Virus record (IMG/VR): IMGVR_UViG_2874945390_000011
Direction: 5' to 3' (one strand)
Source of the DNA: a virus
Lineage: Duplodnaviria > Heunggongvirae > Uroviricota > Caudoviricetes
Length of the DNA: 42,488 nt
The position numbers were made by a program, and so were the translations under genes. The notes beneath the pieces were generated by a model that did no database searches, was not told where the DNA came from, and saw only the letters and a program-made list of their open reading frames with translations. Shown here one piece after another: positions 35,642 to 36,270 of the stretch (its first letter is position 1; each line of letters starts with the position of its first letter).

Positions 35642-36064
35642 TCAATGCACTACGACAGAATCGCCGGGCGACCCACCACCGCTGAAATGTGCTTTCCAGT
35701 AAACGGCCTGGACAGCATCATCATGCGCATCAATTGCCGTACTCAACGCTTCCTGCGCCGCCAGTAATGCACGGCGTTCCAGGGTATCGAAGATACAGAG
35801 TCGGTGACGCAGCTCACGCGGAAGAATTGCCAGAACCGCAGGGATCAGTTTCTGAATTTTTTCCCTTTGCGCTTTCGTTTCACCTTTCAACCAACGGTGA
35901 TAGATATTCTGCTGATTGTTCCAGTCCTTGCCAGGTACCAGAGACAATTCGCCGCCCCCCTGCCGCAGATATTCTTCAGTAATTGCGTTAGCGACCCACG
36001 CCTGCCCTTTTTCGGCTGCCAGGGCTAACAGCACTGATTCGATGTGCTCATGCCTGATTTTCAT
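35642..36064 (-). CDS. YdaT-like protein (Rac-type cro-proximal gene)
   Basis: 140-aa translation closely parallels recalled E. coli Rac YdaT (MKIxHEHIESVLxALAAEKGQAWVANAITEEYLRQGGGEL...). Confidence 0.6.
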   Translation of the reverse strand: MKIRHEHIESVLLALAAEKGQAWVANAITEEYLRQGGGELSLVPGKDWNNQQNIYHRWLKGETKAQREKIQKLIPAVLAILPRELRHRLCIFDTLERRALLAAQEALSTAIDAHDDAVQAVYWKAHFSGGGSPGDSVVVH

Positions 36065-36270
36065 GAATCACCTTCCTAGGTCGTTTTGCCTTACGATATT
36101 CGTCATAAACTTTGGGGTCGTACTGAAGTTCCCCGCCAGATGCCTCTTGCAGGCGCATCGCGCGACCTTCAGGAACCAGTTCCCCCATGCAGGCTTGCCA
36201 GCCTAACTCCTGCGGCATTGGCAAGCTTTGTTTTGCTGCCAAAAAACGCTATAGCATCAATTTTCAACAT
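36048..36270 (-). pseudogene. Cro-like HTH protein, frameshifted at a G5 run
   Basis: ATG at 36270 gives MLKIDAIAFFGSKTKLANAAGVRLASLHGGTGS then stop; the remainder (GELVPEGRAM...VIHENQA) is in another frame. Removing one G from the run at plus 36182..36186 restores a 73-aa ORF. Confidence 0.5.

What the first reader, a model, noticed from the sequence alone, without database searches (positions are those of the whole stretch)
36048..36270. Cro-like gene frameshifted at a G5 run within a RacR / Cro / YdaT-like immunity module
The HTH-containing N-terminal 33 codons and the C-terminal 40 codons are in different frames, separated at a run of five G (minus strand; plus 36182..36186). Loss of one G restores a 73-aa Cro-like protein. 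The neighbours are a RacR-like repressor and a YdaT-like gene; in Rac this trio behaves like a toxin-antitoxin-type module, so inactivation of the cro-like gene may be tolerated or selected.
Basis: partly seen in the sequence, partly recalled or inferred. Interest (0 to 1): 0.5.

Follow-up and report, generated by a model that had tools for sequence, protein, structure and literature searches.

The report
Dead dicC (cro-type) prophage gene
A small Cro-type switch gene (dicC family) in a decaying Shigella boydii prophage is a pseudogene, broken mainly by a 4-base deletion in its DNA-reading helix with a one-G slip on top; this is ordinary prophage decay.

Summary
The frameshift is real. Residues 1-27 and 28-75 of the intact homologue match the minus strand in two different frames at 36048..36270.

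The anatomy differs from the finding. Intact 75-aa homologues read AGC ATT GCT GCA TGG GGG GAA. The window lacks ATTG (junction 36193|36192) and also one G of an ancestral G6 run. The net loss is 5 bases.

The 4-base deletion is the older, shared lesion. It recurs in a second copy of this immunity region on the same chromosome (G6) and in two other public assemblies (G6 and G7). Only the G-run length varies. Removing one G would give a 73-aa protein that lacks two residues of the recognition helix, including a near-invariant Trp. That is not a restored Cro.

The gene belongs to the DicC subfamily (Pfam P22_Cro), not YdaS. The divergent repressor is DicA, not RacR. The downstream gene is YdaT-family.

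The prophage is 99.4% identical to an intact-dicC relative. It also carries frameshifts in hokD, terL, Gp24 and a tail fibre gene, plus three IS insertions.

Expected effect, by analogy with Qin: the DicA/DicC bistable switch can no longer hold its ON state. Selection for the loss is not shown.

The parts
36048..36270 (-). dicC-family (P22_Cro-type) pseudogene. N-terminal fragment 36270..36169 (33 codons plus stop). C-terminal 48 codons lie in another frame, 36194..36051, with the stop at 36050..36048.
   Evidence: tblastn of the intact homologue splits into two frames. The intact homologue scores 158.3 bits on NF007282 DicC (cut-off 130) and 49.7 bits on PF14549 P22_Cro (cut-off 30.2).
36192..36193 (-). 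Junction of the 4-bp deletion. ATTG (GTTG in some homologues) is missing between AGC and CTG. This removes codon 27 and shifts the frame in the middle of helix 3.
   Evidence: Alignments. The same deletion is present in L008, L009 and L010.
36182..36186 (-). G5 run. It is G6 (codons TGG GGG GAA = W-G-E) in every intact allele of this type that was read or listed. On the 4-bp-deletion background it is G6 in two loci and G7 in one.
36347..36754 (+). dicA-type repressor, intact, 135 aa, divergent from the pseudogene.
   Evidence: NF007257 DicA 234.6 bits over positions 1-135 of 135. PF01381 HTH_3. 99.3% identical to the FDAARGOS_944 copy with no gaps.
35642..36064 (-). ydaT-family gene (CII analogue), intact, 140 aa. 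Its start overlaps the end of the dicC reading frame by 17 nt.
   Evidence: PF06254 43.1 bits against a cut-off of 21. Full-length match to the FDAARGOS_944 homologue at 98.6%. Overlap seen.
36280..36346 (.). OR-like operator cluster between dicA and dicC. CTTAG-N6-CTAAG palindromes at 36280-36295 (exact), 36306-36321 (1 mismatch) and 36331-36346 (2 mismatches). Identical to the intact-dicC relative.
   Evidence: The TTAG-N6-CTAA core is the same as in the tested K-12 DicA operator Oc (PMC3441716). Binding here is inferred.
36828..36879 (.). OL-like operator pair downstream of dicA and upstream of the ydfA-like gene: 36864-36879 (exact palindrome) and 36828-36843 (2 mismatches). An adjacent T run at about 36821-36827 varies from T6 to T9 between loci.
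36958..37113 (+). ydfA-like DUF1391 gene, the first gene of the DicA-repressed early-left operon.
   Evidence: PF07151 97.3 bits. 100% identical to the FDAARGOS_944 copy.
37504..38645 (+). IS630-type insertion that cuts the early-left operon about 400 bp downstream of the ydfA-like gene.
   Evidence: Break in colinearity with L007. DDE_3 and HTH_23 domains. 11-bp internal deletion.
31432..31719 (-). rem-family gene, intact, 95 aa. Rem is the DicA antirepressor in Qin.
   Evidence: PF27490 Rem. 100% identical to the FDAARGOS_944 copy. The role of Rem is taken from PMC10448788.

Best explanation
This is a dead copy of a dicC-family gene, the Cro analogue of Qin-type lambdoid prophages. It lies in a degraded, IS-ridden prophage of Shigella boydii (CP026836.1).

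Proposed order of events: an ancestor of this prophage lineage lost four bases (ATTG) inside the codons for the recognition helix of the helix-turn-helix. That put everything after residue 26 out of frame. Later, in this copy only, the adjacent G6 run slipped to G5. The gene stayed out of frame and the product shortened to 33 aa.

The truncated peptide keeps helix 1 and helix 2 but not the DNA-reading helix, so it should not bind the operators (inferred).

The divergent DicA repressor, the OR-like and OL-like operators, ydaT and rem are intact. By analogy with Qin, DicA still represses the early promoters. Without DicC, a transient derepression cannot be locked in by shutting off dicA, so the switch is biased to the repressed (lysogen-like) state (inferred from published Qin genetics, not tested here). 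Translation now ends 105 nt before ydaT instead of overlapping its start, which may also lower YdaT synthesis (inferred).

The lesion is one of many in this prophage. It is best read as tolerated decay, possibly mildly favoured.
For: - Two-frame match to the family.
- Exact lesions against a 99.4%-identical prophage with an intact gene: delta-ATTG plus delta-G.
- Family assignment as DicC / P22_Cro, DicA and YdaT. Similarity to P22 Cro 1RZS, E=2.4e-7 over residues 1-58.
- AF2 model of an intact homologue (mean pLDDT 84): helices at 3-10, 13-20, 24-28, 36-45 and 54-69. The frame breaks at residue 27, inside helix 3. W30 is conserved in at least 90% of 32 homologues.
- The same delta-ATTG and the linked PGK>PRK SNP occur in a second copy on the same chromosome (G6), in run ERR212269 (G6) and in run SRR4176997 (G7). 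With the FDAARGOS_944 outgroup at G6, parsimony places delta-ATTG first on a G6 background.
- None of 5,426 complete E. coli genomes carries the window allele. The intact alleles listed have G6.
- Other damage in the window: hokD, terL, Gp24 and a tail fibre gene are frameshifted; two IS600 and one IS630 are inserted.
- Function of DicC: deleting dicC in K-12 lowers spontaneous dicBp-ON colonies from 1.16% to 0.04% and weakens urea and heat induction. DicA/DicC form a CI/Cro-like bistable switch (PMC10448788).
Against: - No reads are available, so the G count in this long assembly could be a homopolymer error. Only a true G4 or G7 would change the pseudogene call.
- The order of the two lesions rests on parsimony over four loci.
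- No expression or binding data exist for this locus.
- The in-frame G7 allele (74 aa) in another sample shows the lineage is not uniformly dead.
- The early-left operon here has no dicB or dicF (no Rfam DicF hit), so the cost that DicC loss would relieve is unknown.
Confidence: 0.85

Rival explanations
1. Assembly artefact. The gene is intact or in-frame in the cell, and the frameshift comes from a miscounted homopolymer in the assembly.
For: Homopolymer lengths differ between otherwise identical loci: G5/G6/G7 and T6-T9. Two singleton G5 alleles in complete E. coli genomes (AR-0430 and Z1322HEC0010) could equally be long-read errors.
Against: The 4-bp ATTG deletion is not a homopolymer error. 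It is present in four loci from three different data sets. With it, G5 and G6 are both out of frame, so a one-base miscount in the usual direction (true G6 read as G5) leaves the gene dead. Other multi-base deletions in the same genome (2, 4, 7 and 11 bp) show this class of mutation is real here.
Confidence: 0.05
2. Positively selected silencing. Inactivation of dicC was favoured because it stops spontaneous flipping of the prophage switch and expression of harmful early genes.
For: A dicC deletion lowers spontaneous ON-switching about 30-fold in K-12 (PMC10448788). The lesion is old enough to be shared by two prophage copies and two other samples. dicA, the operators, ydaT and rem stay intact. 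The early-left operon is independently cut by IS630.
Against: At least 5 of about 48 compared genes are frameshifted and three IS elements are inserted, so a hit in dicC is within neutral expectation. About 770 E. coli genomes keep an intact allele of this type. One lineage regained the frame with G7, which argues against consistent selection for loss. No dicB or dicF cargo is visible.
Confidence: 0.08
3. Slippage-controlled or recoded gene. The G run acts as a contingency tract that toggles DicC ON and OFF, or ribosomes shift +1 at GGG GGA to make a full-length protein.
For: Three tract lengths (G5, G6, G7) occur on one otherwise near-identical background. One of them (G7) is in frame and gives a 74-aa protein that Pfam still recognises as P22_Cro.
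Against: Tracts of 5-7 G are short for phase variation. Each allele is seen in only one or two samples. The in-frame form replaces IAAW by LHG and loses the near-invariant Trp. The adjacent non-coding T run varies in the same way, as expected for plain slippage. Intact family members are single ORFs with no conserved shift site.
Confidence: 0.02

Closest known systems
[quoted passage not shown]
   Same: The intact allele of this gene scores above the DicC subfamily cut-off. It has the same 75-aa length and the same divergent arrangement with a DicA-type repressor. A ydfA-like DUF1391 gene lies downstream of dicA. The operators share the TTAG-N6-CTAA core.
   Different: This copy is frameshifted and cannot make the recognition helix. 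The operator flanks differ (CTTAG...CTAAG against GTTAG...CTAAC), so the immunity specificity is probably different. No dicF or dicB lies downstream. A ydaT gene follows dicC.
P22 Cro (PDB 1RZS; Pfam PF14549)
   Same: Sequence similarity over residues 1-58 (E=2.4e-7). An all-helical fold is predicted, with the HTH at helices 2 and 3.
   Different: The intact homologue has a longer C-terminal helix and tail. It belongs to a different phage and operator set.
RacR / YdaS / YdaT of Rac, and PaaR2 / YdaS / YdaT of CP-933P
   Same: The same three-gene layout: a repressor divergent from a Cro analogue followed by YdaT. The YdaT family match is real. Bistable CI/Cro/CII-like logic is reported for CP-933P (PMC8630535).
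   Different: The repressor is DicA, not RacR or PaaR2. The Cro analogue is below the YdaS Pfam threshold (20.4 against 30 bits). The toxin-antitoxin reading is contested (PMC5917428, PMC8630535).
Prophage at the ybhA/modC locus of 'E. coli' FDAARGOS_944 (NZ_CP065613.1), which carries ipaHb at its end
   Same: 99.4% identical over about 34 kb of the window, with the same gene order and an intact 75-aa dicC-type gene.
   Different: Relative to it, the window copy has delta-ATTG and delta-G in dicC, frameshifts in hokD, terL, Gp24 and a tail fibre gene, and three IS insertions. FDAARGOS_944 has its own frameshift in one head-tail gene, which is intact in the window.

Membership tests
DicC subfamily / P22_Cro family (Cro-type HTH regulators) | Sequence match above the curated cut-offs (NF007282 at 130 bits; PF14549 at 30.2 bits) | tested here: met
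   The intact homologue, which differs from the window only by the two deletions and one SNP, scores 158.3 and 49.7 bits. The window's 33-aa fragment alone scores 19.3 bits, below the cut-off.
DicC subfamily / P22_Cro family (Cro-type HTH regulators) | One uninterrupted ORF of about 75 aa encoding helix-turn-helix plus recognition helix | tested here: not met
   The frame breaks at residue 27, inside predicted helix 3. The window therefore holds a pseudogene of the family, not a functional member.
DicC subfamily / P22_Cro family (Cro-type HTH regulators) | Divergent from a CI-type repressor, with shared operators in the intergenic region | tested here: met
   A DicA-type gene lies 76 bp away on the other strand. 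Three CTTAG-N6-CTAAG-like sites lie between the two genes. Operator binding was not tested.
DicC subfamily / P22_Cro family (Cro-type HTH regulators) | Represses dicA transcription and stabilises the ON state | not testable with these tools
   Known for K-12 and O157 DicC (PMC10448788). This needs reporter assays.
DicA repressor (NF007257) | Full-length match above the cut-off (101 bits) | tested here: met
   234.6 bits over positions 1-135 of 135.
   The NCBIfam and Pfam scans return DicA, HTH_3 and Phage_CI_repr and nothing named RacR. I did not check whether either library holds a RacR model. No direct pairwise comparison with RacR was run.
YdaS (PF15943) | Match above the gathering score (30 bits) | tested here: not met
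   20.4 bits for the intact homologue.
YdaT (PF06254; CII functional analogue) | Match above the gathering score (21 bits) and a position directly downstream of the Cro analogue | tested here: met
   43.1 bits. The gene runs 36064..35642 and overlaps the dicC frame end.
Type II toxin-antitoxin module | A toxin neutralised by a cognate antitoxin through direct protein interaction, with addiction behaviour | not testable with these tools
   The literature argues against this for YdaS/YdaT (PMC5917428, PMC8630535). Nothing in the sequence requires it.
Phase-variable (contingency) locus | A long simple-sequence tract whose length varies within populations and toggles expression | tested here: inconclusive
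   Tract lengths of G5, G6 and G7 were seen across four loci. The tract is short, no population data exist, and the neighbouring non-coding T run varies in the same way.

The most novel reading that the evidence does not exclude
On the 4-bp-deletion background, the G run could act as a slippage toggle for the prophage's Cro-type protein. G7 would give a 74-aa protein whose recognition helix was rewritten by a compensated frameshift (IAAW to LHG). G5 and G6 would give none. The lineage would then either switch its inducibility on and off, or would have produced a Cro with new or lost operator specificity.
Probability: 0.04. Interest if true: 0.5.

Novelty: already known. Interest (0 to 1): 0.13.

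Why it matters
The direct importance is small. It is one more inactivated regulator in a Shigella prophage, a genome type known for pseudogenes and IS expansion.

It has some use as a worked example. The obvious homopolymer is not the primary lesion, so 'fixing' the G run would not restore the gene.

It also gives a natural allelic series for anyone studying DicA/DicC-type switches: intact, delta-4 with G6, delta-4 with G5, and delta-4 with G7 in frame. The published K-12 genetics predict that this prophage can be derepressed transiently, for example through Rem, but cannot hold the ON state.

Tried and rejected
- I looked for the exact window allele in 5,426 complete E. coli genomes. None has it. 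Every full-length match shows the 4-5 base difference.
- I searched the junction sequence in one-genome-per-species GTDB contigs and got 0 hits. This is uninformative because Shigella is probably not represented separately there (from my own knowledge, not checked).
- I looked up the 64-aa TTG ORF (36242..36048) as a called gene. It is not on record. It has no Pfam match, so I treat it as a frame remnant and not a gene.
- I tested whether G6 to G5 is common in the intact background. Only two singleton genomes were found among the best 60 rows of each of two searches covering about 775 genomes. The full count is not available from the tool.
- I tried to explain the 5-base deficit as one contiguous deletion or a microhomology deletion. 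The sequence does not allow it, so two events are needed (reasoned).
- The promoter scan did not call a promoter for the pseudogene. By eye, TTGACT-17-TAGTTT lies between the operators. I did not rely on it.
- RacR-type and YdaS-type assignments were rejected on family scores.
- Programmed frameshifting was rejected. There is no conserved shift site, and intact relatives are single ORFs.

Full report
**Observation**

On the minus strand an ATG at 36270 opens a 33-codon ORF, MLKIDAIAFFGSKTKLANAAGVRLASLHGGTGS, with its stop at 36171..36169. The remaining family sequence (…GELVPEGRAMRLQEASGGELQYDPKVYDEYRKAKRPRKVIHENQA) runs in another frame to 36048. tblastn with an intact homologue places residues 1-27 at 36270-36190 in frame -3 and residues 28-75 at 36194-36051 in frame -1. 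A G5 run lies at 36186..36182.

**What the lesion actually is**

The best relative is a prophage in 'E. coli' FDAARGOS_944 (NZ_CP065613.1). It is 99.4% identical over about 34 kb of the window and carries an intact 75-aa gene.
- The intact sequence reads AGC ATT GCT GCA TGG GGG GAA.
- The window reads AGC CTG CAT GGG GGA.
- The difference is two events six bases apart: loss of ATTG between 36193 and 36192, and loss of one G from a G6 run.
- No single contiguous deletion reproduces the window sequence.
- The net change is -5 bases. That product would read LASLHGELV in place of LASIAAWGELV.

**Which lesion came first**

The window is part of Shigella boydii CP026836.1. This follows from an exact match of L006 and from the organism named in PMC12817139 and PMC12679885.

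A protein search with the hypothetical 73-aa product turned up two related aberrant products:
- P0095, 67 aa, is the delta-ATTG allele with G6. It is encoded by a second copy of the same immunity region on the same chromosome (L008, about 1.34 Mb) and by Logan run ERR212269.
- P0001, 74 aa with …LASLHGGELV…, is the delta-ATTG allele with G7, which is in frame. It comes from run SRR4176997 and one similar contig.

The alignment of all four loci (A3) shows:
- The same delta-ATTG and the same linked G>A SNP (PGK>PRK).
- Near-identity elsewhere.
- G-run lengths of 5, 6, 6 and 7.
- A nearby non-coding T run that varies from T7 to T9 (T6 in FDAARGOS_944).

With the outgroup at G6, parsimony puts delta-ATTG first on a G6 background, followed by plus-or-minus-one slippage. 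The G5 state of the window is then a secondary change in a gene that was already broken.

In the intact background, about 775 complete E. coli genomes carry this allele type. Among the 60 best rows of each of two searches, only two singletons (AR-0430 and Z1322HEC0010) have G5, and both are annotated as frameshifted. The window's double lesion occurs in none of the 5,426 genomes. The 33-aa product is on record from this chromosome only.

**What the gene is**

- The intact homologue passes the NCBIfam DicC subfamily model (158.3 bits, cut-off 130) and Pfam P22_Cro (49.7 bits, cut-off 30.2). It fails YdaS (20.4 bits, cut-off 30).
- It aligns with P22 Cro (1RZS) over residues 1-58, E=2.4e-7.
- An AlphaFold model of intact homologue P0010, built with 32 homologues, has mean pLDDT 84 and about 90 over residues 1-50. 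Its helices lie at 3-10, 13-20, 24-28, 36-45 and 54-69.
- The frame breaks at residue 27, inside helix 3. Helix 3 is the recognition helix of the helix-turn-helix. The assignment of helices 2 and 3 as the HTH rests on general knowledge of Cro-type proteins.
- W30 is conserved in at least 90% of the 32 homologues. It is lost in every delta-ATTG allele, including the in-frame G7 allele and the hypothetical G4 allele.

**Neighbours**

- The divergent gene at 36347..36754 is a full-length DicA (234.6 bits, positions 1-135 of 135), not RacR.
- The downstream gene at 36064..35642 is YdaT-family (43.1 bits, cut-off 21) and overlaps the end of the dicC frame.
- Exact CTTAG-N6-CTAAG palindromes occur only twice in the 42-kb window: at 36280 (dicA-dicC spacer) and at 36864 (between dicA and a ydfA-like DUF1391 gene). 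Degenerate copies lie at 36306, 36331 and 36828.
- Window-wide, the count of matches with up to 2 mismatches is not above chance (7 found against 11.4 expected). The argument rests on their placement, not their number.
- The tested K-12 DicA operator Oc, TTGTTAGTCATAACTAACAA, has the same TTAG-N6-CTAA core (PMC3441716).
- A rem-family gene at 31432..31719 is intact. Rem is the DicA antirepressor in Qin (PMC10448788).

**State of the prophage**

Relative to FDAARGOS_944 the window shows the following damage:
- Frameshifts in hokD (delta-GG, about 32060), terL (delta-7, about 23731), Gp24 (+A, about 19745) and a tail fibre gene (delta-CTGG, about 3931).
- In-frame deletions of 12, 18 and 3 bp.
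- Two IS600 copies (29489-30752 and 40396-41659).
- An IS630 (37504-38645) that cuts the early-left operon. Its own transposase gene carries an 11-bp deletion.

The dicC lesion is thus one of many. Multi-base deletions are a recurrent, genuine mutation class in this genome.

**Mechanism**

Shown here:
- The gene cannot encode the recognition helix.
- dicA, the operators, ydaT and rem are intact.

Inferred from published Qin genetics (PMC10448788):
- In Qin, DicA represses dicCp and dicBp, and DicC shuts off dicA to hold the ON state.
- Deleting dicC lowers spontaneous ON colonies from 1.16% to 0.04% and weakens urea and heat induction.
- By analogy, this prophage stays DicA-repressed and cannot sustain derepression.

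Also inferred: ribosomes now terminate 105 nt upstream of the ydaT start instead of overlapping it, which may lower YdaT output. YdaT keeps its own AGGAAGG Shine-Dalgarno-like sequence.

Whether the loss was selected cannot be decided. The effect would plausibly benefit the host. Against that, the background rate of gene disruption in this element is high, about 770 E. coli genomes keep the intact allele, and one related lineage regained the reading frame.

Right:
- A frameshifted Cro-type gene.
- The YdaT neighbour.
- The loss is tolerated.

Wrong or incomplete:
- The role of the G run.
- What would 'restore' the gene.
- The RacR label for the repressor.
- The toxin-antitoxin framing. Jobling 2018 (PMC5917428) and Jurenas et al. 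[quoted passage not shown]

**Verdict**

This is an ordinary pseudogene of a known family in a decaying Shigella prophage. The only mild curiosity is the G5/G6/G7 series on the 4-bp-deletion background, which includes a compensated in-frame allele with a rewritten recognition helix.

Noticed in passing
L008 (CP026836.1, about 1.337-1.349 Mb): The same S. boydii chromosome holds a second copy of the dicA / dicC-pseudogene region. It has the same 4-bp deletion but G6. Its ydaT is cut by an IS4-type element, and the replication genes sit in inverted orientation.
   Followed up: partly
L010 (Logan run SRR4176997), gene at 723-947: An in-frame 74-aa allele (delta-ATTG plus G7) in which IAAW is replaced by LHG in the recognition helix. 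The same contig has an A>G change in the spacer at the putative -10 of the dicC-side promoter. The organism of this run is unknown.
   Followed up: partly
window about 32060 (hok CDS about 32122..31969, minus strand); sok RNA 32117..32292: The hokD-type toxin gene has a 2-bp deletion (GG) and is split into two frames. The Rfam sok antitoxin RNA match is strong at 117 bits.
   Followed up: partly
window 23439..24943 (minus strand): The terminase large subunit is frameshifted by loss of one copy of a TGGTGGC direct repeat (about 23731). Gp24 (+A, about 19745) and a tail fibre gene (delta-CTGG at a CTGG repeat, about 3931) are also frameshifted, so the prophage cannot make particles.
   Followed up: partly
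window 37504..38645: The IS630 copy has an 11-bp internal deletion (TTGAGCATATC, about 37858) relative to the copy in L008. This splits its transposase into 89-aa and 261-aa ORFs.
   Followed up: yes
window 29489..30752 and 40396..41659: Two IS600 copies of 1264 bp in opposite orientation, differing at 14 positions. One cuts a DUF1364 gene and the other an AAA ATPase gene of the early-left region.
   Followed up: partly
window 39182..39370 (plus strand): Rfam isrK (64.8 bits) and C4 antisense RNA (76.3 bits) lie directly upstream of a Rha/Ash-family gene (39131..39952). This resembles a P1/P7-type antirepressor control module inside the early-left region. That segment is only 92% identical to FDAARGOS_944.
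   Followed up: no
window 28189..28496 (minus strand): A cluster of four tRNA genes upstream of the lysis genes. In the FDAARGOS_944 relative the corresponding cluster is annotated Ile, Arg, Thr, Gly.
   Followed up: no
window 36821..36827 and alignment A3 columns 135-143: The T run next to the OL-like operator varies between loci (T6, T7, T8, T8, T9). The OL-like region also differs at four SNPs between the window and FDAARGOS_944, whereas the OR-like region is identical.
   Followed up: partly
P0034 (Logan contig, 65 aa): Another broken allele of the same gene appears to lack TT at the very site of the ATTG deletion (…GCATTGCTG… becomes …GCAGCTG…, inferred from the protein). This hints that the spot is deletion-prone.
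   Followed up: no
L007 46761..48587; window 1057..2820: The related FDAARGOS_944 prophage, labelled E. coli, ends next to the Shigella-type effector gene ipaHb. The window has a 587-aa ORF at the corresponding end that did not match ipaHb at above 85% identity.
   Followed up: no
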